A stretch of 64,000 nt of DNA. It comes from a virus (taxonomy: Duplodnaviria; Heunggongvirae; Uroviricota; Caudoviricetes). The notes below the pieces were generated by a model. It saw nothing but the letters and a program-made list of their open reading frames with translations. It ran no database searches and had not been told where the DNA came from. This document shows positions 24,353-58,438 of this stretch, piece by piece; the stretch's first letter is position 1, and each line of letters opens with the position of its first letter. The DNA lies in the IMG/VR virus record IMGVR_UViG_3300001598_000045, positions 1-64,000 of that record; one strand, 5' to 3'. The position numbers and the translations under genes are program-made.

Positions 24353-24441
24353 AGTATATAATAGGATTCGAACCTATGACTTCCTTTAATTATATTCTCC
24401 AACTATAATTAATGGTGTTCTACCGACTGAACTATATATTT
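24353..24441 (-). tRNA. tRNA-like gene with atypical anticodon/variable region (possible intron or pseudo-tRNA)
   Basis: Minus-sense sequence has a canonical D-arm (TA-GTTC-AGTCGGTA-GAAC-A) and T-arm (ATAGG-TTCGAAT-CCTAT). The acceptor stem has 5 bp plus 2 terminal mismatches. 38 nt lie between the D and T arms, containing a 9-bp palindrome ttaattata/tataattaa. No standard 7-nt anticodon loop can be drawn. Confidence 0.45.
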
Positions 24442-45599: not shown

Positions 45600-46256
45600 T
45601 TAATCTTTCAACATAGATCTTAATTCTTTATCTGACTTCTTTAATTCCTCTATCCTAAAAAATCTATCAATACTCTTAAATGATGTTAGATAGTATTGTT
45701 TTCTATCTTCTACATCATTATCAGTACCATAAGATAATACTAGGTCCTCAAAACTAATATAAGAGTCATTTAAAACTAACTTCAATGTCTCAGAATCTAT
45801 ATACTTTCTAGCTGTTCCTGGTTGTAATTCAGCTAATGTTATATGAGGATTATATTCACTAAAATCTGAAGATACTCCATACTTAATACGCAAACCTTTA
45901 TTTATTATATTTACCATATCAAATATTTCACTATCTTTCTTCAACTTTAATACTATATAATCACTGTCATTCTCAAACATACCAAGATCAAACATAGTAA
46001 ATACACCACACTCATGATCACCTTTACATAAGTTAATAAAATCTTCAAAATCAGAACCTAAGATACTTTTTACATCTCCTAATAATTCTTTTCTTGGTAA
46101 TTCTTTCCCCTGTGCATATAATAAGGTAATGTGTGAATCAAACTCTAAACCAGTATCTTTCAAATCATCATAATCAAATATAGATCCGAAATCAACTGGT
46201 GCATCTAAATTCATTGCCCACATAAGACAACTATTCATTACATCTTTAGTATCCAT
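45600..46256 (-). CDS. 2H phosphoesterase (LigT / 2',3'-cyclic phosphodiesterase family)
   Basis: Two HxT/S tetrapeptides, FDSHITLLYA and YNPHITLAEL, at the spacing typical of the 2H superfamily. Confidence 0.75.
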   Translation of the reverse strand: MDTKDVMNSCLMWAMNLDAPVDFGSIFDYDDLKDTGLEFDSHITLLYAQGKELPRKELLGDVKSILGSDFEDFINLCKGDHECGVFTMFDLGMFENDSDYIVLKLKKDSEIFDMVNIINKGLRIKYGVSSDFSEYNPHITLAELQPGTARKYIDSETLKLVLNDSYISFEDLVLSYGTDNDVEDRKQYYLTSFKSIDRFFRIEELKKSDKELRSMLKD

Positions 46257-46262
46257 ATTTTA

Positions 46263-46943
46263 TTATTTTTGATTCTTAAGTCTAAATTTAGCTTTCATTT
46301 TATTAAGATTAGCTTTTAAATCAGAACCTCCTTGATTAAATCCTTTACTATCAACTACGGTAAGCCCAAGTCCTAGTAAGTTATTTAAGAAAGTTTGGTT
46401 ATCCTCTCTAGCTGAATCTTGTCTGGCAGCGTTAATATATTGTTTCGCATTCCTGCTCAATAAAACGCTCAATTCCATTTCACCGATCTTTTGCCCAGTT
46501 ACACGATATCTACCGCGTCCCAATATTGGCTCATCTCGTTTTGCACTAATATCTCTAGAGTACATTGAGGTAGTTACTTTGTTAGAATATGATGGAATGT
46601 GATATAATTCTTCTAATGTCATATAACCACACTGTAATTCTTTCTCTACAGGTATAAACTTTCCCTGCATATCCTTAACTACTTTCTCATATTCTTCTTC
46701 TGGTAAATTATCCTTCAACTCTTTAAGATCTGTTACTGTAGACTTTGGAACTAGAATTTTATTTTGTGATTTAAGTCCTAGCTCATCCATCATCTTATCT
46801 ACTTTCTCTGGCGTATAGTCTGAAAAACAACCTACATTGAAATAATATACTTCTTCTATAGGTTTTGAATTGTGAAGCTTTATAAATTCTTCTACATCCA
46901 TTTTATCATAACGACCAGGATAGTACTTGTTTATTAAAGGCAT
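46263..46943 (-). CDS. rpoB: RNA polymerase beta subunit, C-terminal coding segment
   Basis: GRGRYRVTGQKIGEMELSVLLSRNAKQYI aligns to the bacterial beta block [22 protein letters not shown]. Confidence 0.8.
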   Translation of the reverse strand: MPLINKYYPGRYDKMDVEEFIKLHNSKPIEEVYYFNVGCFSDYTPEKVDKMMDELGLKSQNKILVPKSTVTDLKELKDNLPEEEYEKVVKDMQGKFIPVEKELQCGYMTLEELYHIPSYSNKVTTSMYSRDISAKRDEPILGRGRYRVTGQKIGEMELSVLLSRNAKQYINAARQDSAREDNQTFLNNLLGLGLTVVDSKGFNQGGSDLKANLNKMKAKFRLKNQK

Positions 46944-47083
46944 TATCTTCTTCTGCCCTGTTTTCGTCGTTTTGTATTCCTCTACTAAATCATATAACTT
47001 GTGACAGATATTTCCTAGTTCTTGTTCAACTAAAACACCTGCGATTTTACGATTACACTTATCTAATATATTTCTATATTAGC

Positions 47084-47171
47084 TAGACTATATTATCTCA
47101 TCTAGAGTTTCGCCTATAGTCTTTGAACTTTTTTTAAGTTGCTGATTTGATTTCTCATCTTTCCAGCATTT
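47084..47171 (-). ncRNA. group I intron catalytic core g (compact, no ORF)
   Basis: Minus-sense P AAATGCTGGAAAG, Q CAAATCAGCAAC, R GTTCAAAGACTATAGG, S GATAATATAGTCTAG. Confidence 0.55.
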
Positions 47172-47347
47172 AGTGAAATTTTATTACTACATATATAAAA
47201 TATAGTACTGTAGGGATTCATTACGACTTCAACACGGCGCTGCTTTCCTGACTCATCTACCATTATAGGCATTTCTTCATCCGGGGTTACAGCAGATATA
47301 ACACCTTTTCCTCCATCAAATTTATATTCTAATTTTGTATTAGAATT

Positions 47348-48381
47348 TAGACTGTATCTTTTTCAAATTGTACACAGTCGTTGAAAATTTTAATTTTTAT
47401 TTATTAATTTATATCCACTATCTTCTTCTGATAGTAATCTTTCTACATAATGTCTAGATCTATGTAATAATTTTGCACAATTAGTAATGCTCCTATATAT
47501 CGTTCCATCAGGGCCTATTATTTTATTTGATACATCAAAATTATCTACTTTATATTTAAATCCTTTTTCTGGATGAAATTTTAGCCAATTATATATAGTA
47601 CCTCTAGATACAGAATTATTTTTAGCACATTCATCCATCGTCCCATACTCTTTTCCATCTGGACCAATAATTTGACGCGCTGTTATTGAATTCGAGCCAG
47701 ATATTTTATCAATTGCCGATTGTTTTATCTTTATATTTTTTCTAGACTCACTTAATTTTTGTTTTTGTTCATCTGAAAATATAATTCCTTTTCTAGAATT
47801 TGACAATTTTTTCCTAGACTCTTCATTTAAAATATGACCTTTTCTTATCTTACTTAATAATTCTTTCGTTTCTTGTGAAGCTTTTTTTCCTTTATGAGAT
47901 TCAGATAATTTCTTTTTTGTCTCATCTGAATGTTTTCGATTAGTATTTAATTTACGTAAATAATCTATACTCTTCTCTCTCAATTCCTCTAATGATTTTA
48001 ATGAAACTCTATAAGGAATTTTATTACCATTTTCATCTAATTTATAGGTATTTTCTTTACGATCACTATGACTTGATTGAATCATTCGTAAATATGCATA
48101 TAACAGTTCATTACTGTCTGGATAAATAAATGTTAATAAATGATGCGCAATTATATGTTCTTTAAAAGTTAATAATACTAAATTATCTTTATTATCATTT
48201 CCACCTAAACATTTAGGAAGTATATGATGTTTATTTAATCCATCCCCTTTTCTCTTTATAACTCCTCTAAATTTACGTGATTCTACTAAATCGTCATATA
48301 CTTTTTTATAATTCATCTTTGCTATAATTAATAAATTTTATAAAATTTTGCTGATTCTATATTAATAGTTCCAGCAATTCT
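47348..48381 (-). mobile_element. group I intron core f carrying the HNH homing endonuclease ORF between the P/Q and R/S elements
   Basis: P/Q AGAATTGCTGGAACTATTAATATAGAATCAGCA at 48349-48381. R/S TTTCAACGACTGTGTA...AAAAGATACAGTCTAAA at 47348-47387, directly after the HNH stop. Confidence 0.6.
47390..48316 (-). CDS. HNH homing endonuclease with NUMOD3 and NUMOD1-like DNA-binding repeats
   Basis: HHILPKCLGGNDNKDNLVLLTFKEHIIAHH (HNH). Repeated KKLSESHKGK/RKKLSNSRKG (NUMOD3-like) and C-terminal GPDGKEYGTMDECAKNNSVSRGTIYNWL x2 (NUMOD1-like). Confidence 0.85.
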   Translation of the reverse strand: MNYKKVYDDLVESRKFRGVIKRKGDGLNKHHILPKCLGGNDNKDNLVLLTFKEHIIAHHLLTFIYPDSNELLYAYLRMIQSSHSDRKENTYKLDENGNKIPYRVSLKSLEELREKSIDYLRKLNTNRKHSDETKKKLSESHKGKKASQETKELLSKIRKGHILNEESRKKLSNSRKGIIFSDEQKQKLSESRKNIKIKQSAIDKISGSNSITARQIIGPDGKEYGTMDECAKNNSVSRGTIYNWLKFHPEKGFKYKVDNFDVSNKIIGPDGTIYRSITNCAKLLHRSRHYVERLLSEEDSGYKLINKN

Positions 48382-49467
48382 TAATCTATATAGACCTGGA
48401 TTATTTGATCTATTCGTAACTTTCGATCCTACCATAAGAGTAGTACGTTTTATCAATCTAACTCGTACGGTATAAACTACCTTATACTCATCTGGATTCA
48501 TAATAATTGGATCTAAAGTATCCGCAGCAATATACTCAGGAAATTTATCGTATATTACTTTTCTATTTTTATTATCATTATACTCTTTAATTACTTTTTC
48601 AGATTGTCTAGCAAAAGTAAAGTCAGGCATCTTTTCAGTTTTAGGTACTTTTGGTTTCTTCATTTCTTGAACCATAATATCAGAAACATAAGCCTCATCT
48701 ATATTGTTCGGTACTTTTAAATAATCCTCAACCGTATATTCTGTTAAATCCTTTCCTTCTTCACCAAATAATCCACCTAATTTTTCATTAAGAGCTCTAT
48801 TTATTTCATCTAATCTTACTGTTTTAAATAAAGTAACTACACTATCACCTGACTTAACTTGTGTGCCAATTGGAGCTAACCATTTTAATGATGCGCTATT
48901 CTTAACATTTATTTTTAAGTCAATAATACTATAGTGAGCCATTCTATTTGCATAAGATTCAGATACGACAAGTGCATCCTCATTTACTAAACCATGATGC
49001 GCTGAGAATAAAACTAACGTATTTAATCCCATCTTATATGTGTCTTTCTCTAAACCAACAGCTCCAGTAATCACATCGCCTTTTTTGACTTTCTGACCTA
49101 CTTTTACTTTTGGCTCAGTATAAACACAAACATCATTCATAGATTGTATTGCACTACGTCTTAATACATCTACCTCTGTCTTATCCGGTAACTCAATAAC
49201 AACTTTATCTTCATCTATTCGCTTTACTTTACCACTCTCATAAGCAAATTTTTCACTAAGAATATTGTTACTAAGCTCTTCATTATTACCAGTATCAACT
49301 AATGGTCTCTGTGCATTAACTAGAGGTATACTTTGTTTAAGCATTCCGGTGCCCATTGAGATTCGCACAGAGTCAGTACTAGAGATAAAAGGTATTCTTC
49401 TAGTTGTTTCAGAAAGACGGTAATCTGGGTGTAAATCAATTAAATCAATTTCTTCTACAGGTACCAT
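48328..49467 (-). CDS. rpoB: RNA polymerase beta subunit, middle coding segment
   Basis: [40 protein letters not shown] aligns to bacterial beta DVHPTHYGR...[36 protein letters not shown] aligns to GDKMAGRHGNKG. The last roughly 20 codons run into intron core f. ATG at 49467; the ORF track lists a TTG at 49479. Confidence 0.8.
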   Translation of the reverse strand: [379 protein letters not shown]

Positions 49468-49720
49468 TTTTCTTTTCAATCTATACTTTACTTCTACCTC
49501 ACCATTCTCATTGGGCTTTAATTTCTTTTCTTTATAATCAACAAACTCTGATGCACAAACTTTTAAATTAAGATAATCTAAATATTGTATTGTTATCTTA
49601 TTAAATTCTTTGTCATATACATCAAATAATATTCCATCATCAGTAATATGTGCCGATACTGTTAATGAGTTTTGAATATTTGTGTTTTGATTGCATTATT
49701 AGATATACTTAAAATATATC

Positions 49721-49837
49721 TTAGGACTATATCACTCTAAAATTATATTAGATTATATACATAGTCTCTGAATATAAAATATTTATTAAAGATATTTATA
49801 CTGCTGATTACTATTAAATTTAGTTTCCAGCATTTTT
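49721..49837 (-). ncRNA. group I intron catalytic core e
   Basis: Minus-sense P AAATGCTGGAAAC, Q TAATCAGCAGTA, R TTCAGAGACTATG, S AGAGTGATATAGTCCTAAG. Confidence 0.55.
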
Positions 49838-49919
49838 ATATAATTTTCCATTTATTTCAATGGCGACCAATTAAAATCGGAGTCATTTATTCAAGATATG
49901 TCAAATCTAAATATCTTGA

Positions 49920-50027
49920 TAGACTGTATCTTTATTATCTTTGCACACAGTCTTTGTATGTAATTATCTATATATTAATTAAAATAATTACACTGCTGAT
50001 TCTATATTAATAGTTCCAGCAATTCTC
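49920..50027 (-). ncRNA. group I intron catalytic core d
   Basis: Minus-sense P GAGAATTGCTGGAAC, Q GAATCAGCAGTG, R ACAAAGACTGTGTG, S AAAGATACAGTCTATC. The P/Q module is nearly identical over 37 nt to those of cores c and f. Confidence 0.55.
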
Positions 50028-50068
50028 AAAGTTCTTAGGAAATTTTAATTTCCTCGGACTACTCTTAT

Positions 50069-51031
50069 TTAATCCGCGAGATCTATAAGATCGCTCAAGC
50101 TTTCATTATATGCAGTTGTCTTTGGAATAGTTACTTTTGCTCCTAAACTTCCAAGGTTCATTGCATTTATTCCGGGTGGTACTTGCACATTAGAATCACC
50201 CGCAGTAGCTTCTTGTGTTCCTTTAAAGAATCTATATGAGAGACGAGTTATTGAAGTTATTTGATCCTGTAACTTACCTTGTTTCATGAAGTAATTTTGT
50301 ATTTGTTTACGAGCTCCATAGTAATTTCTTCTATTATTGCTCTTAAATATAAACTGCATAAAGCCGGTAGGAACAGAGTCAATAGTTTTATCAATAATTA
50401 AATCTCTTAATCTATCATCTCCAAAGGCTAGACATTCCTGAATAAGTTGAGTGGTAATATATTCTGGTTTATAGTCTAGATCTAATTTTATTTGAAACTT
50501 TTTACTTTGTCGTTCTGTAAGTTTCAATAATTCTTTCTTCTCCCCTGTAACAGTATCAATGTCGTCATATTTTATATCTATGGCTCTTTCTGAATATCCT
50601 GTTTCAAAGTTTGTTCTTTTTACTTTAAGAATCTTAGTTTTAATGTCATATCTTCTATCATAGTCAAAGTTAATAATATACTCACCTGAACCTGACATTT
50701 TAATACGACAATCATAATCTGGATTCAATTTATTAGTTGCGATACGATATGCACCCTCTATAATAAAAGCACCATCAATCTCTTTAGGTACTTCAAATTC
50801 AGATTCTAAAATTCCTGGATCATCATTTATAGTATACTCAATTTTAACTTTATGAGATGCAGTTAAACCATTCTCAATAAAATAAGATGCTGGTTTTTCT
50901 GGTTCTTCTACTATATGAAATTTTAGATCTGTTATTTTCTTTTTAGGATTATATTGATCTGCACTATTTAAAAATCTCGATACTAATATTTTAGCTCCAT
51001 GATTCTTAAAATATTCGTTAAAATTACTCAT
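50069..51031 (-). CDS. rpoB: RNA polymerase beta subunit, N-terminal coding segment
   Basis: GAFIIEGAYRIATNKL aligns to the bacterial beta block GTFVINGTERVIVSQL. ITSITRLS aligns to the region before fork loop 2. Confidence 0.8.
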   Translation of the reverse strand: MSNFNEYFKNHGAKILVSRFLNSADQYNPKKKITDLKFHIVEEPEKPASYFIENGLTASHKVKIEYTINDDPGILESEFEVPKEIDGAFIIEGAYRIATNKLNPDYDCRIKMSGSGEYIINFDYDRRYDIKTKILKVKRTNFETGYSERAIDIKYDDIDTVTGEKKELLKLTERQSKKFQIKLDLDYKPEYITTQLIQECLAFGDDRLRDLIIDKTIDSVPTGFMQFIFKSNNRRNYYGARKQIQNYFMKQGKLQDQITSITRLSYRFFKGTQEATAGDSNVQVPPGINAMNLGSLGAKVTIPKTTAYNESLSDLIDLAD

Positions 51032-51381
51032 TACAATAGTGTTTTAATATTTAATTGTTTATACTCACAATCTACCGTGTTAAAAAATTCTTCTATATCT
51101 TTTCTAATACTATCCTTTAAATCTCTAGCTTCTACATATTCACTCATTACCTTTTCACTTCTACATCTAAAAAATGCATCATAAGTAACTAAATAATTAT
51201 ATGTATCTTTTAACTGATATAATACTAACTTAACTGAGAATCTTTCATACTTATCTGGAATATTATCTTTCAAACTAGTATATAAAATATCTCTAGCCTT
51301 TATTACATCTGGATCTTTACTGTCTAATATATTATAGGGAATTTCATATGATAGCGTAATTTTAAAATAATGATCGTTCAT
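51031..51381 (-). CDS. hypothetical protein (possible small polymerase-associated subunit or downstream exon)
   Basis: 116-aa ORF between the beta' and beta genes. Confidence 0.4.
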   Translation of the reverse strand: MNDHYFKITLSYEIPYNILDSKDPDVIKARDILYTSLKDNIPDKYERFSVKLVLYQLKDTYNYLVTYDAFFRCRSEKVMSEYVEARDLKDSIRKDIEEFFNTVDCEYKQLNIKTLL

Positions 51382-51404
51382 ATTTATATCACCTTGTATA
51401 TGTA

Positions 51405-51656
51405 TTAAAAGTCCATATTCATCATGTTACCAGTTATATTTCTTACTGGTCTTGACTCTAACTGAACTTCTTTCTTTTCTGTAATTTCCTCTTTCTTCCT
51501 ATCATCCACAACAGGCATTTCCGGAGTATTTACAGTATTTTCATTTAAACTACCCGAAGACGATGAAGTAGAATAAACTACCTCACCATCTTTACGGATA
51601 ATAATATTGATATTTAATTCTCTCTCAAATCTTGGTAAATCAAATTCAATCTTCAT
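51405..51656 (-). CDS. hypothetical protein; candidate downstream exon following intron core c
   Basis: 83-aa ORF beginning about 75 nt after the S element of core c. Confidence 0.35.
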   Translation of the reverse strand: MKIEFDLPRFERELNINIIIRKDGEVVYSTSSSSGSLNENTVNTPEMPVVDDRKKEEITEKKEVQLESRPVRNITGNMMNMDF

Positions 51657-51739
51657 ATCTATTTTTCATCAAGTTTATCATTCATGAGCAAGCCCAAAAT
51701 TGTTTCCGTCCTTTAAAAAATATACATATCTGTATATTA

Positions 51740-51834
51740 TAGACTATATCTTTAAAATTCATACATAGTCTTTGAAAATAACATATATTTAAAGTTATTC
51801 TGCTGATTCTATATTAAATAGTTCCAGCAATTCC
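51740..51834 (-). ncRNA. group I intron catalytic core c
   Basis: Minus-sense P GGAATTGCTGGAAC, Q GAATCAGCAGAA, R TTCAAAGACTATG, S AAAGATATAGTCTATA. Begins 2 nt after the HNH-2 stop. Confidence 0.55.
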
Positions 51835-51846
51835 TAAAATTCTAAA

Positions 51847-52662
51847 TTAAATAATTTTCTTTCGTTTAGTCTTCTTGTAAAATTTAAAGCCTTTTTCTGG
51901 ATGTTTTTCTATCCAATAGACAATCGTACTATAACTTACTAAATATTTTTTTGCCATTTCTACTACTGAAAGTATTTCATTAGAGGGATCAATAACTAAA
52001 TCCAGATGCTCCCTTCTTTTTATACTTAAGCGTTTCTTTACTTCATCAGTATGATGTTTATTAAAAAATGGATTTGCTTCGCCAGTAAACTTACCTAGCC
52101 TACTTTTTGAAATCTTATCACAATGTTCTTTAGTAAATTTAGGTCTTTTACGATTTTTTAAAGACTTTCGTATTTTTTCTTTATGTTCTTCACTTAAATG
52201 TCCATTATAATTCCAATGTTTTTCTCCTAGCTCACGTTCACTCATTTTCTTTCTTGACTCTTCAGTATGTTTTCTATTATACATCGGATTATTTTCTCCA
52301 GATCTATCGATTTTAGATCTAGAATAAGCTTTTTCTCGTAATGTTGCAATTAGTTTTGAGTTCTTTAATGCAACGAATTTAACATCTTTCCCTCTATTTA
52401 ATGTTTTATCAAATTTTGTCAAAGCAAGAATTGAATATAATAACTTAGAGTTATCTGGGTAAATTTCAGATAATAGTATATGTGCTAAAAGATGTTCTCT
52501 AGCCGTTAATAGTACTTTATTATCAGCTGTATCTGGACCATTTAAACATTTTGGTACAATATGGTGAATTTCATAATACTCTCCTTTTAATTTTGATTTA
52601 TCTAAACCTCTTTTCTTTCTAGAATCCATTAAATCATCATATATTTTTTTATAATTCATTAT
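51847..52662 (-). CDS. HNH-NUMOD homing endonuclease 2 (in frame with the upstream beta' segment)
   Basis: MNYKKIYDDLMDSRKKRG...EIHHIVPKCLNGPDTADNKVLLTAREHLLAH. Its N-terminus is nearly identical to that of HNH-1. NUMOD3-like repeats and a C-terminal NUMOD1-like module. Confidence 0.8.
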   Translation of the reverse strand: MMNYKKIYDDLMDSRKKRGLDKSKLKGEYYEIHHIVPKCLNGPDTADNKVLLTAREHLLAHILLSEIYPDNSKLLYSILALTKFDKTLNRGKDVKFVALKNSKLIATLREKAYSRSKIDRSGENNPMYNRKHTEESRKKMSERELGEKHWNYNGHLSEEHKEKIRKSLKNRKRPKFTKEHCDKISKSRLGKFTGEANPFFNKHHTDEVKKRLSIKRREHLDLVIDPSNEILSVVEMAKKYLVSYSTIVYWIEKHPEKGFKFYKKTKRKKII

Positions 52663-54003
52663 ATAGTAATTTTTAATTTTATTTAATTTAGGACAACATT
52701 TAATTATCACATCACCAGAAAGATCTACATCTCCCTTAAGTGCTTTATCAACAATTTTAGAACTATAACCATAACTCAAAACAGTATAGAATGATTTTTT
52801 ATTTAACACAGATTGACCCGCACCTTGATATTGTATTTCCTCTAATTTATCTTTAGGTCCATAAGTTAATTTAGTTAAACCTACAAACAATAACTCAATA
52901 ATTTCTTCTGGAGTCGAATCTAAAGATGATAAACCAGTCTTCATATATCCATCATCAGTTAAAGTATACATCTGCTTACGGAAAATTAAATATATATCAT
53001 TTAGTCTCTTTGGTCCTAATACACTTGATACAGTTCTCATATTAACTACACCAGAACAAATCTTATCAAACTTATGAACCTGAGCACCATCTGGAAAATA
53101 ATACATACTTCTTGGATTATATTGATATTCTTGATTACCAATAAATACATGAATCTCTCCTTTATTATCTTCTGTATATTTAATTATACCATCATCATAT
53201 GCATAACAATCTGCTACATTAATTGTTTCTTTTTCAAAATATTTAGTTCCATTTCCACCTTTTGCATTCATTAAATTAATTAATGTATTTACTTTTACAA
53301 TAGGTGAACTAGTATTATATGCAACACAAATATTTTCTCCTTTTTCAAATTTTGTTTTTCCTAAAGTTACAAGATTATCTGGACGTGGATATTTTAATTC
53401 AGCGCCTCTAACTTTTAAATATATCCACTTTCCTTCTTCACTAAAAGTACATGGTTTATCTGCTACTAAATAACCAGATTTATCCAAAACTCTTTCATGA
53501 CCACCGTGTTTTAATCCTAATGCAGCTTGTGTAGTACCTTCTGTAAAACTTGTTGCAAAAGATAATCCAATAGCAGCTCCATCAGTAAAATCAGATACAC
53601 CTGGACGATGACCTATTAAATCAGGAGTCACTACATTCAAGTCACCTTTTACTTTTGTAACTATAGAACGAACAGGAACTAAATCATTTTCATCTCCTTT
53701 TGCTATCGGAGTATTAGGATAAACTTTTCCATTTGGTGCAGTTCTTCCTAATGCTTTATAACGAGGAATTAATAAACCTTCATTAGTCTTGTCTTCTCCT
53801 TCATGATAAACGAAATTATTTAATACGAAGGAAATTTGTCTTGTTAAATATCCCGAAGTAGGACATATATAGCCTTTAAAACTATATACGGAATTATAAT
53901 CTCTATAATTCATTAGACTATACCATGAGATAATAAATATATCCCTACAATATTTAGTCGTTGATCTTATTACTACATTACTACTCGGCTTTAATGTCTT
54001 CAT
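52663..54003 (-). CDS. rpoC: RNA polymerase beta' subunit, C-terminal coding segment (trigger-loop region)
   Basis: TSGYLTRQ aligns to bacterial NSGYLTRRL. GAAIGLSFATSFTEGTTQAALGLKHGG aligns to the trigger loop [36 protein letters not shown] aligns to TGLSSLVVLDS. The 5' roughly 40 codons may be intron. Confidence 0.75.
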
Positions 54004-54224
54004 TCTTTATCCCTGCGGCGGAATTCTTAAGCTCCTGATAATGATTTATTTGCTTTAATACTTCGCCGGCTGTAACTAGAATGGTAGTAATAGCCGATAA
54101 AACTTTCAATACATTTCCTAATTTCATAATAAGTTGCTGATTAATTGTTAAAAATTTTATATCTTTTTCACACTATTCCCAGCATTTTTCTGCTTTTTGA
54201 TAGTGATGCTCCAATTCTTCATAT
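54004..54224 (-). mobile_element. intervening sequence with a group I P/Q module and a divergent GC-rich candidate P7
   Basis: P/Q AAATGCTGGGAA...TTAATCAGCAAC at 54133-54187. Candidate P7 strands cagccggcg at 54064-54072 and cgccgcagg at 54013-54021. Confidence 0.4.
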
Positions 54225-55214
54225 TTAAACACCACCTTGCTTAATAGACTGTAATGATCTATTTTCTACACTATGTAATATCATGTCATGTTCTGCATAT
54301 GAACCTAACAATGATCCACGTGTAATAACTGGTTTTTCATCTATACCCGAAACAATCAATTGAGGCATGTTTAAGGCGGATATTGATGAAATTTTAACTC
54401 GTCCAGCTCGATTCAATTCATTCTTTAAATCTTCTGTAAATTTGCCTTCTATTTCTTTCTCGTATTTAGCATATTTATCAGTTAAGATTGCAAGTTTCTG
54501 TTGATCCGTTAATTCCTTCGAGTCAGCTACTTTACAAATTTCTTTATAAAGTTCTGTATTGGTATCTACATATAATGTCTTATAGTCAAATGTTACTACA
54601 CCTGCTAAAGTCACTACACGAAGAGCAAATATTTGTAATTCTCTTCTCTTCTCAACACCATCTTCTTGCCCATTTAAATAAGCTGATAACTTCGCTGCGG
54701 CTTTTGCATCAATTCGTTTAAATGGGTCTGATAAAATATGAAGATCTTCTAAGTCTGCATCCAATATTTTAGAAATTCTTATTCTACCATAACTTGTTGT
54801 TTTACTTTTATAGTTCACATTTCCAATTTTGCCTGTATATGTAATTGGAGTACCTATTTTTATTTTCTTATCAACCTCTACATCTTTTAATAATTGAACA
54901 TAATCTGTATAGAAATGTTTTGGATTCTCTAAGTCATCCTCATTTTCCAATACATATTCTGTTGCCACTGCTAAACCATTAAGAGTTTCATGATTAAATG
55001 GAAATATAGGCTTTCCACTTTTTTTATATACATTTACATAACGAGGCGACATTTTTTTATATGTATCCTCTGCAATTTCTTCTGGAACAAGCTGCAGGGC
55101 TACGGTATCGCCGTCAAAATCGGCATTTAATGGCTCACAAACTGCAATTGGATAGTGAATTGCATAATCGTCAACTAATCTTTGCTTCATACAGAATATT
55201 GAATATTCGTGCAA
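54225..55214 (-). CDS. rpoC: RNA polymerase beta' subunit, middle coding segment (catalytic NADFDGD)
   Basis: AIHYPIAVCEPLNADFDGDTVALQLVP aligns to bacterial [27 protein letters not shown]. Confidence 0.85.
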   Translation of the reverse strand: MHEYSIFCMKQRLVDDYAIHYPIAVCEPLNADFDGDTVALQLVPEEIAEDTYKKMSPRYVNVYKKSGKPIFPFNHETLNGLAVATEYVLENEDDLENPKHFYTDYVQLLKDVEVDKKIKIGTPITYTGKIGNVNYKSKTTSYGRIRISKILDADLEDLHILSDPFKRIDAKAAAKLSAYLNGQEDGVEKRRELQIFALRVVTLAGVVTFDYKTLYVDTNTELYKEICKVADSKELTDQQKLAILTDKYAKYEKEIEGKFTEDLKNELNRAGRVKISSISALNMPQLIVSGIDEKPVITRGSLLGSYAEHDMILHSVENRSLQSIKQGGV

Positions 55215-55990
55215 TGATGGTTGGCGATCAACTCATGTTTTGTCGAATATATTTCAATTCAACCACAGACTATATTTTCTATTACTAGTTTTATCCATAG
55301 TCTTTGAGCTTAAATATAATTTTTAACTTCTAAATTTAAGTTTTTATTTTCTTTTGTTTTTTGTAATAAGAAATTATAAACTTGTCTTTTTTCTTTTTTA
55401 TCCATGAATTCAGTATATCTAGTACCGGATTCATCTAATTGTGTATATTTTTGGAATTTTATAAATGTATCAAATTCTAAATCTGCTAGTTCATATGTAG
55501 GTCCTGAAATAATAAGAAGTACTTTACCACCTAAAATTTGTTTCTGTGTTCGTCTTTCCCAGTCTTTAGAGAAACCTACTTTAATACTAGATGGAAAATC
55601 TAGCATATAAATATAACCATTATCTCCTTGAAATTTATTATGGAGTAAGGTTCTATTAGCTTGTCGTTGATGATACTCTGATCCATATCCGTGAGAAGAT
55701 TTATCTAAAAGATTTCTTTCACGGATACTTTTCATTCTTTCTCTCTTTTCATCAGATACATTCCACAAACCAATCTTAGAGGTACCATTATATCTTCCTT
55801 CTTGATGTAGTTGTTTCATGTGTTCTGATCTATTGAATGTCAGATCAGAGTATGAATTTTGTCGTAATATAATCATATCTGTCTGTTTTTTAATTAATAG
55901 AGATTCCAGTTAAAAATAAATTTAAGCTGCTGATTCCTTAACTTCCACGTTAAAGTTCCAGCAATTCATAAAATTCGAATTGGCATTTTC
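55215..55990 (-). mobile_element. group I intron (core a) carrying the GIY-YIG-like ORF between the P/Q and R/S elements
   Basis: P/Q TGAATTGCTGGAAC...GGAATCAGCAGC at 55927-55968. R/S GCTCAAAGACTATGG...GAAAATATAGTCTGTG at 55264-55309, abutting the ORF stop. Confidence 0.6.
55310..55876 (-). CDS. GIY-YIG superfamily (T5orf172/MUG113-like) endonuclease candidate, intron-encoded
   Basis: C-terminal GYIYMLDFPSSIKVGFSKDWERRTQ resembles the N-terminal domain of ORF 9908-10525. The basic N-terminal region KRERMKSIRERN is NUMOD3-like. Confidence 0.55.
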   Translation of the reverse strand: MIILRQNSYSDLTFNRSEHMKQLHQEGRYNGTSKIGLWNVSDEKRERMKSIRERNLLDKSSHGYGSEYHQRQANRTLLHNKFQGDNGYIYMLDFPSSIKVGFSKDWERRTQKQILGGKVLLIISGPTYELADLEFDTFIKFQKYTQLDESGTRYTEFMDKKEKRQVYNFLLQKTKENKNLNLEVKNYI

Positions 55991-57181
55991 GGGTTTACCA
56001 ATTTGTAGGGAATTTAACCCTAACGTACCAGTATTGAAATATATTAGCACGCATTGTTTTTCAGCATACTCTTGGAACAGTTTTTGAGTTTCTGGGTCAA
56101 GAGCTTCATACTTAGTTGCCTTTTTTGCTTCATCATAAGTAAAGTTCAATTCCTCTTGTAATCTCTTAATAAATCCTTCGCGGCACATTTCATAAGCTAT
56201 ACTACGAGGAACACCTATTTCATCAATTGCAAGGGTAGTAGACGGAACAATTGGACATCTAGCTGAATTTTTAGTGCGGACAGAATAAAGTTCACGAGCT
56301 AAATTATCTTTCGAAGTTTCCAATAATTTAGTTGCTTCTCTTTTACCAGTATTAATTAAAGCACGTAATAATGCAGTATATCGTACTCTCTCTCCTGGTG
56401 TTTTGAACTGTGACATAACTAAGTTGTAATTAAGCGCATTACTCTTTACAGCTTCAGTACAACACAATCTAATTAAGTTACTATACCAAATAGATAGTTT
56501 ATGTGAACCCATTACTTTTTTACCATCTTTATAACCTAATGTAAAAGGTCTCATGATGGAAGGTTGCACAAGATAATATCTATTTATTAGTTTCATATAT
56601 TCTGTCAATCTTTCTGGAAAATGTTTTTTGATAATTGCCATAAGTCCTTCATAAGAACATTTACTTTCATCTGTAATAAACTCAGTAATTTTTAGTTCTT
56701 TTTTAGTAGCATTATATTCAAATTGGCAAGAATCAAATACTTTAATTCCCAACTTCTTTCCTCCACGGGTTGCACTATACCCATTTCGTTTTAAATCATC
56801 TCCTAAGAAATCTAACTTAATCGTACTAGATTCAAAAATATCATCAAATAAGTCTTTAAAGATATCAAATCTAAGATCATTTAGATAATAAAAAGGAAAT
56901 TCAATTCTAGCAAATCTTCTTAAAGCTTCATCTCTAGTAAATACTCTTGCACCACAATTAGGACAAGGTTCTGGAGAGGGTTGTCGAATTTTACCACAAA
57001 TACATCTATCTGCTATAGGCGAACCAAATGCATCTATGTCGTAAACACCTCCTGGAACTGGATGTACTCCGTCAAAGCTTAAATTAAGATCTCGGAAGTC
57101 AAAAAGAATTCTATCAACTCCATCACTTCTTGAATAATCTACAATAGCTTCATCTGTTAATAACTCTAGTGATACTGCCAT
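55922..57181 (-). CDS. rpoC: RNA polymerase beta' subunit, N-terminal coding segment
   Basis: Bacterial-type zinc ribbon CICGKIRQPSPEPCPNCGARVFTRDEALRRFARIEF aligns to CxCGK...CxxCGVEV...RRERMGHIEL. RTKNSARCPIVPSTTLAIDEIGVPRSIA aligns to KRVDFSARSVI...LxIDEVGVP. The last roughly 20 codons overlap the intron P/Q module. Confidence 0.85.
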   Translation of the reverse strand: MAVSLELLTDEAIVDYSRSDGVDRILFDFRDLNLSFDGVHPVPGGVYDIDAFGSPIADRCICGKIRQPSPEPCPNCGARVFTRDEALRRFARIEFPFYYLNDLRFDIFKDLFDDIFESSTIKLDFLGDDLKRNGYSATRGGKKLGIKVFDSCQFEYNATKKELKITEFITDESKCSYEGLMAIIKKHFPERLTEYMKLINRYYLVQPSIMRPFTLGYKDGKKVMGSHKLSIWYSNLIRLCCTEAVKSNALNYNLVMSQFKTPGERVRYTALLRALINTGKREATKLLETSKDNLARELYSVRTKNSARCPIVPSTTLAIDEIGVPRSIAYEMCREGFIKRLQEELNFTYDEAKKATKYEALDPETQKLFQEYAEKQCVLIYFNTGTLGLNSLQIGKPENANSNFMNCWNFNVEVKESAA

Positions 57182-57193
57182 ATTTTTTTAAAA

Positions 57194-58282
57194 TTAATTA
57201 TTGATTTCATTCCAGATAATTTTCTTTGATAAATCGGTATCCATTGCATTATCTGCAGACCATTTCTTATAGACTTCTTTAACATCAGCAATTGCTTCAC
57301 CTCTGGTTTTATCCTTTAGTTTTTCATAAATTCCTGCATCTTCATCTATAACTACTTCAATTAAATCTGAAATAACATCTTGTGTGATTGCTTTAGAAGT
57401 ATTTGTAAACTTACTTCTATACTCACGATAGACAAGAACATCATCATAAGTTAAATCAAGATCTTTGTATTCAGATGAGGTACGAATTTCAGCAGGTTCT
57501 TTAGTAAACCAGGCTAATTGTAATTTTCGTACACGTTCCGCTACTTTATGTCTACCTAATTCATCATATCGTTTAGCAAGATCTTCTACAATATCATACT
57601 TTGACTTTATTATTTTACTTAATGCATTATCAATTTGTTTTGCATATACCCTAGGCATTGTTGGACATTTTAAAATAAGGTCATACATACCTGAAGAGAA
57701 CAAATAAATAATAAGAGCCGGGATATGTCTTTGTTTTCTACGTCTTGAAACGACAGAGTCCCTAGATAAATCTCTACTAGCAAGATAGCCAATAAAGCGA
57801 GCAATATGATCTCTAGCTTCCTGAGCAAACATTTTATTAAAACCGGAGTCATCTTCTAGTACAAAATCTATATCTACATCTTCTCCTGTAAGTGGAGAAT
57901 CTGGGACATAAATAGAGTTAACCATACGAGAGTGACCTTGCTTATGTAACATCTCCTTTACCATATTTCCAGCTGTATAAACTGAAGTATTTTTAGGACA
58001 AGCCAATGCGATAGTAGTAAGTGCATCTTCAATAGCAGTTTCTCTACTATTTTTATTAGCAGCAACAATGTCATCATAAGCAGAGATTAACCAACTTTCA
58101 GTAGATGTAATTCTACCACCTGATTCTTTTTCTACATCAGTTTTCTTTTTTGGTTTCTCTTCCTCTTCTTGCTCAATGGAATCATCATTTTCCTCTTCAT
58201 CTTCGGAATCATCTTCATTACCCTGATAATAACCCTCTTCTTCAAGTTCATCATCATCGCCTAACAAATAATCATCTTCCAT
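57194..58282 (-). CDS. hypothetical protein with highly acidic N-terminus
   Basis: The first roughly 45 residues are D/E-rich (MEDDYLLGDDDELEEEGYY...EEEEKPKKK). Immediately upstream of beta'. Confidence 0.5.
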   Translation of the reverse strand: MEDDYLLGDDDELEEEGYYQGNEDDSEDEEENDDSIEQEEEEKPKKKTDVEKESGGRITSTESWLISAYDDIVAANKNSRETAIEDALTTIALACPKNTSVYTAGNMVKEMLHKQGHSRMVNSIYVPDSPLTGEDVDIDFVLEDDSGFNKMFAQEARDHIARFIGYLASRDLSRDSVVSRRRKQRHIPALIIYLFSSGMYDLILKCPTMPRVYAKQIDNALSKIIKSKYDIVEDLAKRYDELGRHKVAERVRKLQLAWFTKEPAEIRTSSEYKDLDLTYDDVLVYREYRSKFTNTSKAITQDVISDLIEVVIDEDAGIYEKLKDKTRGEAIADVKEVYKKWSADNAMDTDLSKKIIWNEINN

Positions 58283-58438
58283 GTTCTTTGATTCTATTAT
58301 TATTTTCCATTAATTCACGTGACAAAAAAGCCCGAACTTCTTTGTCTTTCACTTATTAGTCTTTGAGGGGATTTGAGAAGAGTTTTGGCTATTTCAAAAA
58401 AAAATAAGAGCAGCTTTTACACTACTCTTATAATTATT

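What the first reader, a model, noticed from the sequence alone, without database searches (positions are those of the whole stretch)
46263..57181. Bacterial-type multisubunit RNA polymerase whose beta' and beta genes are each broken into three coding segments
Six minus-strand ORFs align, in order, to contiguous parts of bacterial beta' and beta. For beta': N-terminal zinc ribbon and docking region (55922-57181), the NADFDGD catalytic segment (54225-55214), and the SGYLTRQ/trigger-loop segment (52663-54003). For beta: GxFIINGxERV (50069-51031), the IPF..MG..MQRQ block (48328-49467), and the GEME block (46263-46943). The residues are bacterial-like, not eukaryotic Rpb1/Rpb2-like: CxCGK...CxxCG, SGYLTR, NADFDGD..A. 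The order beta' then beta is the reverse of bacterial rpoBC. The total size, about 930 aa for beta and 1200 aa for beta', is minimal. This resembles the split polymerases of phiKZ/AR9-type jumbo phages. Here, though, all segments are contiguous and separated by intron-like sequences (see the group I intron finding).
Basis: partly seen in the sequence, partly recalled or inferred. Interest (0 to 1): 0.8.

Follow-up and report, generated by a model that had tools for sequence, protein, structure and literature searches.

The report
Intron-riddled phage RNA polymerase genes
A gut-type jumbo phage carries genes for the two large subunits of a bacterial-type RNA polymerase; seven self-splicing group I introns interrupt them, so the proteins are whole after splicing, and this is typical of a recently described phage group.

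Summary
The minus strand 57181-46263 encodes a bacterial-type beta' followed by beta. They are not broken into three segments each. Beta' has 4 exons and 3 introns. Beta has 5 exons and 4 introns, including an 8-nt micro-exon.

All seven intervening sequences have a group I core (P/Q/R/S elements), a U before the 5' splice site and a terminal G; six of the seven have a clear P1. Three carry homing-endonuclease ORFs: two HNH+NUMOD3 and one weakly T5orf172-like.

Conceptual splicing gives beta' of 1116 aa and beta of 1053 aa. Both align without gaps at every junction to uninterrupted metagenomic homologues (73-80% identity).

So these are unsplit subunits, unlike the protein-level split polymerases of phiKZ/AR9. 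By sequence they are nearer to cellular bacterial beta/beta' than to AR9 or phiKZ.

The operon orf362-beta'-orf83-orf116-beta recurs on 200-400 kb viral contigs. There the same two genes carry 1 to at least 11 interruptions (median 7). This matches the recently published intron-rich 'Jug' gut jumbo phages.

Verdict: a new member of a known kind, of moderate interest. Side observations are the very compact introns (146-188 nt), some of which appear to lack P8, and the 8-nt micro-exon, which relatives also have.

The parts
51659..57181 (-). beta' (rpoC-like) gene: 4 exons, 3 group I introns, spliced product 1116 aa
   Evidence: The spliced ORF has no internal stop. It aligns without gaps at all three junctions to uninterrupted 1113-1119 aa homologues of 73-74% identity. 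PDB best hits are bacterial beta'.
56046..57181 (-). beta' exon 1 (aa 1-379, phase 2): Zn ribbon CICGK..CPNCG, ends ..EKQCV(L)
55234..56045 (-). intron bp1 (812 nt), group I with P1, P2, P2.1 and P3-P9. P1 is CGUGCU/GGUACG with a U.G pair at the splice site. The intron ends in G. Its ORF sits in the P6 loop.
   Evidence: Core motifs. The junction was fixed using intron-less homologues. On 10 orthologous introns, 82% of cells are paired against 32-46% in slid controls, 26 pairs change on both sides, and 0/500 shuffles reach the observed values.
55310..55876 (-). ORF inside bp1 (188 aa), putative homing endonuclease of uncertain family (GYIYML..IKVGFS, weakly T5orf172/GIY-YIG-like)
   Evidence: Conserved at 62-77% identity inside the intron at the same site in 63 related loci. 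Pfam T5orf172 appears only weakly, in 2 of 11 members, best E=0.036. No PDB sequence hit.
54229..55233 (-). beta' exon 2 (aa 379-714): RQPSLH, NADFDGD catalytic loop
53864..54228 (-). intron bp2 (365 nt), group I. P1 is GUGGUGU/GCAUCAC. It interrupts the bridge helix just before SGYLTR.
   Evidence: An intron at this site (aa 714/715) is present in most related loci.
52706..53863 (-). beta' exon 3 (aa 714-1100): SGYLTRQ, trigger-loop-like TQAALGLKHGGH
51711..52705 (-). intron bp3 (995 nt), group I. The HNH ORF lies upstream of the P3-P9 core. P1 is weak (GUGAU/GUUGU). There is no room for P8.
   Evidence: No intron was detected at this position in the 77 related loci, where matches run to aa 1104-1116.
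51847..52659 (-). HNH + NUMOD3 homing endonuclease ORF of bp3 (about 270 aa). It is in frame with upstream exon 3, which is why the ORF finder fused them.
   Evidence: Pfam NUMOD3 6.8e-17 and weak HNH. PHROG 655 'homing endonuclease' 7.7e-43.
51659..51710 (-). beta' exon 4 (52 nt; (M)TETILGLLMNDKLDEK*)
   Evidence: Matches the conserved C-terminus GDVMTETVLGLL of intron-less homologues.
51405..51656 (-). orf83, a small gene between beta' and beta
   Evidence: Present at the same position in 74 related loci at 39-45% identity. No family hit.
51031..51381 (-). orf116, a highly conserved small gene directly upstream of beta (its stop overlaps the beta start codon)
   Evidence: Found in 76 loci at 50-76% identity. 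No Pfam, PHROG or PDB hit. The single-sequence AF2 model is unusable, pLDDT 50.
46263..51031 (-). beta (rpoB-like) gene: 5 exons, 4 group I introns, spliced product 1053 aa
   Evidence: The spliced ORF has no internal stop. It aligns without gaps at all junctions to uninterrupted 1053 aa homologues of up to 80% identity. PDB best hit is Thermus beta, E=1e-33.
50072..51031 (-). beta exon 1 (aa 1-320), ends ..LIDLAD
49884..50071 (-). intron b1 (188 nt), compact group I. P1 is CGGAU/GUCCG. P10 is ACUC/GAGU, pairing with the micro-exon. There is no room for P8.
   Evidence: An orthologous intron sits at the same site with the same P1 in related loci.
49876..49883 (-). beta exon 2: 8-nt micro-exon ACTCCGAT (codons T321, P322 and the first two bases of I323)
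   Evidence: DTPIN is strictly conserved in intron-less homologues. The same 8-nt exon (ACACCTAT) lies between two intron cores in L038, L060 and L061.
49694..49875 (-). intron b2 (182 nt), compact group I. P1 is CGAU/GUCG, P2 is CCAUU/AAUGG, and a short P8 is present.
48408..49693 (-). beta exon 3 (aa 323-752): RRIPF, MGTGMLKQ, NEDALVVSE
47317..48407 (-). intron b3 (1091 nt), group I. P1 is AUAGAU/GUCUAU. The HNH ORF is in the P6 loop. There is no room for P8. It interrupts NR|YGGKGV.
47390..48316 (-). HNH + NUMOD3 homing endonuclease ORF of b3 (308 aa)
   Evidence: Pfam NUMOD3 1.4e-9. PHROG 655 'homing endonuclease' 1.2e-41.
47202..47316 (-). beta exon 4 (115 nt; (Y)GGKGVISAVTPDEEMPIMVDESGKQRRVEVVMNPYST(I))
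47056..47201 (-). intron b4 (146 nt), very compact group I. P1 is UACUAU/GUAGUA and P8 has 3 bp.
46263..47055 (-). beta exon 5 (aa 790-1053): INRKIAG.., GEMELS
57194..58282 (-). orf362, a conserved gene immediately upstream of beta': acidic N-terminus followed by a helical domain. Possible transcription factor (tentative).

Best explanation
This is the RNA polymerase operon of an uncultivated, AT-rich jumbo phage related to the 'Jug' gut phages. It encodes one full-length bacterial-type beta' (1116 aa) and one full-length beta (1053 aa). Seven mobile group I introns have invaded the two genes, each at a codon inside a highly conserved motif.

The proposed sequence of events is as follows. The genes are transcribed, probably as one operon with orf362, orf83 and orf116. 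Each intron folds into the P1-P9 ribozyme and excises itself in two transesterifications started by guanosine. The ligated mRNA is then translated into intact subunits, which form the catalytic core.

Three introns carry homing-endonuclease genes: two HNH+NUMOD3 of the I-HmuI kind and one weakly T5orf172-like. These endonucleases would cut intron-less alleles in co-infecting relatives and so spread the introns. The four ORF-less introns (146-365 nt) are stripped-down derivatives.

Shown here: the exon-intron structure, the homology of the spliced products, the group I fold (by covariation), and the presence or absence of introns among relatives.

Inferred: that splicing occurs in vivo, that the genes are co-transcribed, that the endonucleases are active, and which proteins make up the enzyme.
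For: (1) All seven intervening sequences contain the ordered group I core elements AAUUGCUGGAA(P)...AAUCAGCA(Q)...CAA(A/C)GACUAU(R)...GAUAUAGUCU(S).

(2) Every 5' splice site follows a U and every intron ends in G. In six introns that U pairs with a G of an internal guide sequence just downstream; in bp3 the P1 pairing is weak. With these rules alone both genes become uninterrupted ORFs.

(3) All seven junctions align without gaps to uninterrupted homologues. These are beta' P0001 and others (1113 aa, 73-74% identity) and beta P0121 (1053 aa, 80% identity). The junction contexts are QCVL|VDRQPSLH, KQGG(V)PTSGYLTR, GDV(M)TETILG, LAD|TP(I)NQN, TNR(Y)GGKGV and PYST(I)NRK.

(4) Covariation on 10 orthologues of intron bp1: 82.1% of cells are paired against 32-46% when partners are slid; 26 pairs change on both sides against 8-11; 0/500 shuffles reach the observed values. 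P6 has 6 of 8 pairs changed on both sides and P3 has 3 of 6. The U.G pair at the splice site is present in 9 of 9 rows.

(5) The long-range P3 pairing is specific to each intron. Across 80 distinct cores, the duplex energy of an intron's own two strands averages -4.19 kcal/mol, against -1.91 for strands from different introns (Mann-Whitney p=2e-21).

(6) The HNH+NUMOD3 ORFs match phage homing-endonuclease families.

(7) Introns come and go at fixed sites in 77 related IMG/VR loci. Of 483 intervening sequences, 361 carry the ordered core. There are 1-11 interruptions per locus, median 7.

(8) The PDB sequence search puts both subunits with bacterial beta/beta'.

(9) Literature. Jug gut jumbo phages (360-402 kb, 27-30% GC) carry about 18.5 group I introns per genome, mean about 206 nt, with many HNH genes. 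Metatranscriptome reads supported splicing for 37 of 76 predicted introns (PMC12880540). An HNH-bearing group I intron in a jumbo-phage RNA polymerase gene has been characterised experimentally in PhiPA3 (PMC11620839).
Against: Rfam 15 reports no group I intron anywhere in the window, either at gathering scores or at E<=10 over the region.

There are no RNA data for this phage, so splicing is inferred.

Three introns (b1, b3, bp3) have only 17-19 nt between the two P7 strands. That leaves no room for the P8 hairpin that, to my knowledge, described group I introns have, so self-splicing without help is not assured for them.

P1 of bp3 is weak: 5 pairs, 4 of them wobble.

No alpha, omega or sigma homologue was identified, so the composition of the enzyme is unknown.
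Confidence: 0.9

Rival explanations
1. Polymerase split at the protein level, as in phiKZ/AR9. Each ORF would be translated on its own and the fragments would assemble into the enzyme.
For: Six sizeable ORFs each cover a contiguous part of beta' or beta. Jumbo-phage polymerases with split subunits are well documented (PMC7598289). The nearest GenBank phage hits for beta exon 3 are AR9-like Staphylococcus jumbo phages at about 25% identity.
Against: Exon ends fall inside conserved motifs and mostly inside codons. Three exons are 8, 52 and 115 nt long with no start codon. The ORF starts at 54003 (ATG), 55214 (TTG) and 49479 (TTG) lie inside an intron (54003) or within an exon, not at exon starts. 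The intervening DNA has group I cores with covariation. Relatives encode the same proteins as single genes.
Confidence: 0.03
2. Decaying or inactive polymerase genes. On this view the insertions are not removed and the genes are pseudogenes.
For: Rfam finds no group I intron. Three introns seem to lack P8. There are no expression data.
Against: All nine exons keep their frame and have no stops. The spliced products are 73-80% identical to intact homologues and retain every catalytic motif. The same interrupted arrangement, including the 8-nt micro-exon, persists in phages whose proteins have diverged to about 70% identity. That pattern implies purifying selection on the spliced product.
Confidence: 0.03
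3. The sequence comes from a cell or an organelle (for example plastid rpoB/rpoC with introns), or from a eukaryotic giant virus, and not from a phage.
For: GC content is about 28%. The subunits are bacterial-type. Group I introns are common in organelles.
Against: The gene order is beta' then beta with two phage-specific small genes between them. The neighbours are phage-like: a ThyX, a DnaB-like helicase, a weak Acb1-like match and a ClpB-like ATPase. All close relatives lie on IMG/VR viral contigs of 200-400 kb. Identity to any cellular beta' is only about 24-26%.
Confidence: 0.01
4. The interruptions are inteins, or are bypassed during translation, and are not RNA introns.
For: The Jug phage paper also reports intein-like insertions in some genes. 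The HNH ORF of bp3 is in frame with exon 3.
Against: Every intervening sequence has stop codons in the exon frame before the next exon. No intein splicing blocks were hit in Pfam. RNA structure covariation is strong.
Confidence: 0.01

Closest known systems
Jug (jumbo gut) phages of Bacteroides/Phocaeicola, and related animal-gut huge phages (Sci Adv 2026, PMC12880540)
   Same: GC is 27-30%, against about 28% here. They encode RpoC. Essential genes are fragmented by many short group I introns (mean about 206 nt), with numerous HNH and other homing endonucleases. Splicing is supported by metatranscriptomes. My related loci include contigs of 355-401 kb carrying the same operon and 7-11 interruptions in rpoC and rpoB.
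   Different: The window phage is at most 75-80% identical in beta' and beta to anything in the protein collection. The Jug groups Alpha, Gamma and Delta share more than 90% genome identity, so this is a distinct relative, not a described Jug genome. The text of the paper that I could read names terL, nrdD and DNA polymerase as interrupted genes, not the polymerase subunit genes. It does not describe micro-exons or introns without P8.
PhiPA3 gp210 intron in the vRNAP gene gp211/209 (Birkholz et al., Science 2024, PMC11620839)
   Same: A group I intron with an I-HmuI-like HNH nicking endonuclease, inserted at a catalytic motif of a jumbo-phage multisubunit RNA polymerase gene. Relatives of the window phage carry an intron at about aa 416, at or just after the NADFDGD motif (aa 415-421). 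PhiPA3's intron borders the equivalent conserved aspartates.
   Different: PhiPA3 has one intron in a polymerase whose subunits are also split at the protein level (Chimalliviridae). Here seven introns sit in two unsplit genes.
phiKZ/AR9 nvRNAP and vRNAP (split beta/beta', no alpha or omega, fifth subunit gp68/gp226)
   Same: A phage-encoded multisubunit RNA polymerase derived from bacterial beta/beta'. No alpha or omega gene is seen next to the catalytic subunit genes. Conserved extra genes lie in the operon.
   Different: Here the subunits are single polypeptides. Sequence similarity is weak: 7s00_C E=2.7e-14 and 7ogp_C E=0.006, against 1e-33 for Thermus beta. Only one polymerase gene set is visible in the window.
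mReC, Caudovirales encoding deep-branching full-length beta and beta' (Weinheimer & Aylward 2020, PMC7481178)
   Same: Tailed phages from metagenomes, some above 200 kb, that encode unsplit beta and beta' recognisable by cellular profiles.
   Different: The paper does not mention introns. Its search required whole subunit genes and would have missed interrupted ones. Whether the present clade belongs to mReC was not tested, because none of their sequences were available to me.
Multi-intron phage genes such as Staphylococcus phage Twort orf142 or nrdE, and the T4 td, nrdB and nrdD introns
   Same: Several self-splicing group I introns, some with endonuclease ORFs, inserted at conserved codons of essential phage genes (my own knowledge; Twort is cited in the reference list seen).
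   Different: Density is higher here: seven introns in 11 kb. The introns are much smaller (146-188 nt). Two of them are separated by only 8 nt.

Membership tests
Bacterial-type RNA polymerase beta' (RpoC) | Double-psi beta-barrel with the NADFDGD Mg2+ loop | tested here: met
   NADFDGD at aa 415. Pfam RNA_pol_Rpb1_2 E=2.5e-6 on exon 2.
Bacterial-type RNA polymerase beta' (RpoC) | N-terminal Zn ribbon, a bridge helix of the SGYLTR type, and a trigger-loop motif | tested here: met
   CICGK at 60 and CPNCG at 73, SGYLTRQ at 717, TQAALGLKHGGH at about 825-836. These are sequence motifs only; no structure was modelled.
Bacterial-type RNA polymerase beta' (RpoC) | Closest solved relatives are bacterial, not archaeal or eukaryotic | tested here: met
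   All 60 listed PDB matches are bacterial, cyanobacterial or chloroplast beta'/gamma chains, best E=1.3e-13.
Bacterial-type RNA polymerase beta (RpoB) | Conserved active-site blocks (the ..NxED.. motif, GxKG lysines, GEME) and best matches to bacterial beta | tested here: met
   NEDALVVSE at 560, NRYGGKGV at 750, GEMELS at 981. Thermus beta E=1e-33 against Pol I RPA135 at 3.7e-4. Pfam RNA_pol_Rpb2_6 E=5.2e-8.
phiKZ/AR9-type split jumbo-phage RNA polymerase | Beta and beta' each made as two or more separate polypeptides from separate genes | tested here: not met
   Exons lack start codons and are joined by group I introns. Homologues are single genes.
phiKZ/AR9-type split jumbo-phage RNA polymerase | Closer in sequence to phiKZ/AR9 subunits than to cellular subunits | tested here: not met
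   7s00_C E=2.7e-14 and 7ogp_C E=0.006, against 1e-33 for bacterial beta. No AR9 or phiKZ beta' chain is among the 60 listed beta' matches.
phiKZ/AR9-type split jumbo-phage RNA polymerase | Two polymerase sets (virion and non-virion) in one genome | not testable with these tools
   Only 64 kb of the genome is available, and it shows one set.
Group I intron | Conserved core P3-P4-P6-P7 with P/Q/R/S elements in order | tested here: met
   Present in all seven. Present in 361 of 483 intervening sequences in relatives.
Group I intron | 5' splice site after a U that pairs with a G in P1, and a terminal guanosine | tested here: met
   U before the splice site and G at the 3' end in 7 of 7. P1 helices of 4-7 bp in 6 of 7, weak in bp3. 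The U.G pair is conserved in 9 of 9 bp1 orthologues.
Group I intron | Base-pair covariation supporting the fold, including the long-range P3 helix | tested here: met
Group I intron | P8 hairpin between P3' and J8/7 | tested here: inconclusive
   Present in bp1, bp2 and b2, and as 3 bp in b4. No room for it (17-19 nt between the P7 strands) in b1, b3 and bp3, nor in 20 of 80 distinct cores of the clade.
Group I intron | Match to the curated Rfam model | tested here: not met
   No Intron_gpI hit at gathering score or at E<=10. The Jug paper detected its introns with other, subtype-specific models.
Group I intron | Guanosine-dependent self-splicing | not testable with these tools
   Needs an in vitro assay or RNA-seq.
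I-HmuI-like HNH homing endonuclease | HNH catalytic motif plus NUMOD3 DNA-binding repeats, encoded inside an intron | tested here: met
   Pfam NUMOD3 6.8e-17 and 1.4e-9, weak HNH. PHROG 655 7.7e-43 and 1.2e-41.
Jug phages (PMC12880540) | Genome of 360-402 kb; more than 90% genome identity within groups Alpha, Gamma and Delta | not testable with these tools
   Only a 64 kb window is available, and the source contig is about 76.5 kb. The best beta'/beta identities of 73-80% argue for a relative, not a member of a described group.
Jug phages (PMC12880540) | Low GC (27-30%) and many group I introns of about 200 nt, with HNH genes, in essential genes | tested here: met
mReC Caudovirales (PMC7481178) | Placement of beta/beta' in the mReC clade of a phylogeny | not tested
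   No mReC sequences were available. The representatives named in the paper come from other metagenomes.

The most novel reading that the evidence does not exclude
The operon may encode a self-contained, minimal bacterial-type transcription machine that has not been characterised biochemically. It would consist of unsplit beta' and beta plus three clade-specific partners: orf362, which shows hints of a sigma4-like or winged-helix domain, orf83 and orf116. These partners would stand in for sigma, alpha and omega.

A second part of this reading concerns the introns. Maturation of the mRNA would depend on unusually small group I ribozymes (146-188 nt). Some of them lack P8, and two are separated by an 8-nt exon. 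If these splice on their own they would be among the smallest natural group I introns, as far as I know, and would show that P8 is dispensable.
Probability: 0.3. Interest if true: 0.6.

Novelty: new member of a known kind. Interest (0 to 1): 0.42.

Why it matters
The finding gives an exact gene model for a polymerase that ORF-based annotation would break into fragments, or mislabel as a 'split' phiKZ-like enzyme.

It shows that in this widespread clade of gut jumbo phages the two catalytic polymerase genes are heavily colonised by introns. There are at least 12 insertion sites in beta' and at least 10 in beta across the clade, and a median of 7 interruptions per phage.

This bears on two open questions. 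The first is the published proposal, which the Sokolova et al. 2020 review (PMC7598289) cites from its reference 18, that the protein-level splits of the phiKZ/AR9 polymerases arose from intron invasion followed by intron loss and rearrangement. The second is whether intron endonucleases act as weapons between co-infecting phages.

The compact introns, some apparently without P8, and the 8-nt micro-exon offer natural test cases for the minimal requirements of group I catalysis.

Tried and rejected
Searches that found nothing useful:
- Megablast of the 11.4 kb region against GenBank phages: no match.
- tblastn of beta' exon 1 against phages: no match.
- Whole spliced beta' against phages: only remote hits, at most 29% identity over at most 39% of the query (Rhizobium RHph phages, Ralstonia RP13 and others).
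- Rfam at gathering score and at E<=10: no intron family, only chance snoRNA-like hits.
- The search for related loci with a single protein: nothing. An alignment was needed.
- Source of the window: orf362 is in the collection at 100% identity (JGI and Logan, contig 76,554 bp), but no contig record or accession could be retrieved.

Corrections to my own model: my first splice-site choices for bp1 and bp3 were each 3 nt off. I corrected them using intron-less homologues and the better P1 pairing.

Function of orf362, orf116 and the bp1 ORF:
- PDB profile searches were empty.
- Foldseek of the orf362 model was empty.
- The single-sequence AF2 model of orf116 was too poor to search with.

Other:
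- The promoter scan was no better than shuffled sequence.
- A literature search for group I introns without P8 returned only unrelated 'p85' papers.
- No supplementary tables of the Jug paper are held.

Readings considered and rejected (see the rival explanations): inteins, pseudogenes, organelle origin and protein-level split subunits.

Full report
OBSERVATION

The region 46263-57181 lies in an AT-rich window (about 28% GC). Pfam and PHROG profiles confirm that they are pieces of RNA polymerase large subunits. RNA_pol_Rpb1_2 hits 55922-57181 and 54225-55214. RNA_pol_Rpb2_6 hits 48328-49479. PHROG 'RNA polymerase beta subunit' families also hit.

The same searches show that other ORFs in the region are homing endonucleases. 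ORF 47390-48316 and the C-terminal 271 aa of ORF 51847-54003 are HNH+NUMOD3 proteins (PHROG 655, E about 1e-42).

GENE MODEL

Reading the minus strand shows a recurring set of sequence elements: AAUUGCUGGAA ... AAUCAGCA ... CAA(A/C)GACUAU ... GAUAUAGUCU. These are the classical P, Q, R and S elements of group I introns. They occur seven times in the region, not four.

I placed each 5' splice site after a U that pairs with a G of a nearby guide sequence. I placed each 3' splice site after a G. With these rules both genes became uninterrupted reading frames. Two junctions (bp1 and bp3) were first placed 3 nt off. I corrected them with intron-less homologues and a better P1 pairing.

Final model for beta':
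- Exons 57181-56046, 55233-54229, 53863-52706 and 51710-51659.
- Introns of 812, 365 and 995 nt.
- Product of 1116 aa.

Final model for beta:
- Exons 51031-50072, 49883-49876, 49693-48408, 47316-47202 and 47055-46263.
- Introns of 188, 182, 1091 and 146 nt.
- Product of 1053 aa.

Six of the seven junctions fall inside a codon. All seven fall inside conserved motifs:
- before RQPSLH;
- in the bridge helix before SGYLTR;
- in the C-terminal GDVMTE;
- twice in DTPIN;
- in NRYGGKGV;
- in NPYSTINR.

INDEPENDENT CONFIRMATION

The 5.8-billion-protein collection holds many uninterrupted homologues. Beta' homologues are 1113-1119 aa at 73-74% identity and 100% coverage. Beta homologues are 1053 aa at up to 80% identity.

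The spliced products align to them without a gap at any of the seven junctions. This includes the three residues TPI that depend on the 8-nt micro-exon ACTCCGAT.

The micro-exon is used in full by its two neighbours. Its first four bases pair with the guide sequence of intron b1 (P10, ACUC/GAGU). Its last four bases form P1 of intron b2 (CGAU/GUCG). The same arrangement, two intron cores around the 8-nt exon ACACCTAT, is present in L038, L060 and L061.

ARE THEY REALLY GROUP I INTRONS?

Rfam finds nothing, so I tested the fold directly.

For intron bp1 I aligned ten orthologues from the same insertion site and projected the P1-P9 structure of the window copy onto the alignment:
- 82.1% of cells are paired, against 32-46% when partners are slid by 1-3 columns.
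- 26 pairs change on both sides, against 8-11 in the slid controls.
- None of 500 shuffles reaches the observed values.
- P6 has 6 of 8 pairs changed on both sides, and P3 has 3 of 6.
- The U.G pair at the splice site is present in 9 of 9 rows.

Across 80 distinct intron cores from the two genes in this clade, the long-range P3 helix is specific to each intron. The duplex energy of an intron's own strands averages -4.19 kcal/mol, against -1.91 for strands from different introns (p=2e-21).

Together with the endonuclease ORFs in peripheral loops, and the presence or absence of introns at fixed sites, this settles the identification. Actual splicing remains inferred. For the related Jug phages, metatranscriptome reads supported splicing of 37 of 76 predicted introns (PMC12880540).

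WHAT KIND OF POLYMERASE

A sequence search of the PDB places both subunits with cellular bacterial enzymes. Beta gives E=1e-33 to Thermus beta. Beta' gives E=1.3e-13, and all 60 listed beta' matches are bacterial, cyanobacterial or chloroplast beta'/gamma chains.

The jumbo-phage enzymes are further away. AR9 nvRNAP beta-C (7s00_C) gives 2.7e-14, phiKZ gp71 (7ogp_C) gives 0.006, and eukaryotic Pol I gives 3.7e-4.

GenBank phages in the August 2025 collection offer only remote relatives. Examples are Rhizobium RHph phages, Ralstonia RP13 and AR9-like Staphylococcus phages, at no more than 29% identity.

The comparison with the split phiKZ/AR9 enzymes is not: here the split is at the RNA level only.

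CONTEXT AND RELATIVES

The same operon is found on a 293.7 kb wolf-gut scaffold. The order there is a 363-aa protein, intact beta', a 73-aa protein, a 116-aa protein, then beta with one intron.

A profile-guided scan of IMG/VR returned 77 loci on contigs of up to about 400 kb. I ran tblastn of the spliced subunits against these loci:
- 483 intervening sequences were found, and 361 carry the ordered group I core.
- Among the 55 loci that cover both genes, the number of detected interruptions ranges from 1 to 11, with a median of 7.
- This method undercounts. It detects only 5 of the window's 7.

The window is thus typical of its clade. Shared insertion sites include beta' aa 380 and 714/715, and beta aa 320-324, about 752 and about 790. 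The intron at beta' aa 1100 (bp3) was not seen in any relative.

The flanking genes are also conserved. orf362 is found in 56 loci, orf83 in 74, orf116 in 76, and the weakly Acb1-like gene downstream of beta in all 78 loci held.

LITERATURE

[quoted passage not shown] They were reported to carry about 18.5 group I introns per genome, mean about 206 nt, together with hundreds of HNH genes. RpoC was used there as a marker gene.

Several of my related loci lie on contigs of 355-401 kb and are probably such phages. The window phage is at most 75-80% identical to anything in the collection, so it is a distinct relative.

An HNH-bearing group I intron in a jumbo-phage polymerase gene has been studied experimentally in PhiPA3.

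Unsplit beta and beta' in tailed phages from metagenomes were described as mReC. I could not test membership of that clade.

A review of jumbo-phage polymerases cites a proposal that their split genes arose through intron mobility followed by intron loss. The intron-saturated genes here are a living example of the first step of that proposal.

SIDE RESULTS

Three of the seven introns (b1, b3, bp3) have only 17-19 nt between the two P7 strands. These nucleotides are fully taken up by J7/3, P3' and J8/7, so there is no room for P8. The same is true of 20 of the 80 distinct cores in the clade. Orthologues at one site differ in whether they have P8.

The ORF-less introns are very small: 146, 182 and 188 nt.

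orf116 and the 188-aa ORF of intron bp1 remain unassigned.

VERDICT

The finding is real and the intron reading is right. The structure is 4+5 exons, not 3+3, and the enzyme is an unsplit bacterial-type polymerase, not a phiKZ/AR9-type split one. It is a new member of a recently described kind of phage: intron-rich gut jumbo phages that carry their own rpoB and rpoC. Interest is moderate. The most novel elements are the apparently P8-less miniature introns, the conserved 8-nt micro-exon, and the uncharacterised composition of the polymerase.

Noticed in passing
window 49884-50071 (b1), 47317-48407 (b3), 51711-52705 (bp3); related loci such as L078, L030, L056, L034 and L023: Compact group I introns with only 15-19 nt between the two P7 strands, which leaves no room for a P8 hairpin. 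This applies to 20 of 80 distinct cores in the clade. Orthologous introns at one insertion site (beta' aa 380) exist both with P8 and without it (L030, L023).
   Followed up: partly
window 49876-49883; L038, L060, L061: An 8-nt micro-exon lies between two complete group I introns. Its first 4 nt pair with the guide sequence of the upstream intron (P10). Its last 4 nt form P1 of the downstream intron. The arrangement is conserved in relatives of about 70% protein identity.
   Followed up: yes
window about 35610-35700, minus strand: Another complete compact group I-like core (AATTGCTGGAAAG..AATCAGCA..CAACGACTATA..GATATAGTCT), also without room for P8. It lies between ORF 35038-35583 and the DnaB-like helicase ORF 36002-37414. 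Partial motifs also occur: P/Q only at 37631 and 16126, and R/S only at 34726, 33019 and 10142.
   Followed up: partly
[not shown]
   Followed up: partly
window 51031-51381 and 51405-51656, minus strand: Two small genes always sit between beta' and beta in this clade. orf116 is as conserved as the catalytic subunits (mean column identity 73%). Neither has any detectable family.
   Followed up: partly
window 55310-55876, minus strand: The 188-aa ORF in the P6 loop of intron bp1 is conserved at 62-77% identity in 63 related loci, always in the intron at beta' aa 380. It matches no curated family above threshold (weak T5orf172 only). It may represent an undescribed homing-endonuclease family.
   Followed up: partly
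window 45600-46256, minus strand: The gene directly downstream of beta has two HxT motifs (seen by eye) and a weak Pfam Acb1 (anti-CBASS) match, E=7e-6. By eye this suggests a 2H-phosphoesterase-like protein. It keeps this position in all 78 related loci.
   Followed up: no
related loci such as L005-L032, L018, L023, L031; beta' aa about 416: Many relatives carry an extra intron at about aa 416, at or just after the NADFDGD motif (aa 415-421). The experimentally studied PhiPA3 intron borders the equivalent conserved aspartates. The window phage has no intron there.
   Followed up: no
window 51847-54003, minus strand: The HNH ORF of intron bp3 is in frame with the upstream exon 3, so ORF finders fuse polymerase and endonuclease into one 718-aa ORF. 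In this intron the ORF lies between P1 and the P3-P9 core. In bp1 and b3 the ORF lies in the P6 loop.
   Followed up: partly
whole window: Rfam 15 detects none of the eight or more group I introns of this window, even at E<=10. Annotation pipelines that rely on Rfam will miss them and report fragmented genes.
   Followed up: yes
window 58404-58431, minus strand: A terminator-like hairpin followed by T8 lies between the ClpB-like gene and orf362. No such site occurs on the minus strand from 58282 to 46263. This is consistent with one transcription unit running from orf362 to beta.
   Followed up: no
window 24356-24439, minus strand: One tRNA gene is called by Rfam (38.7 bits).
   Followed up: no
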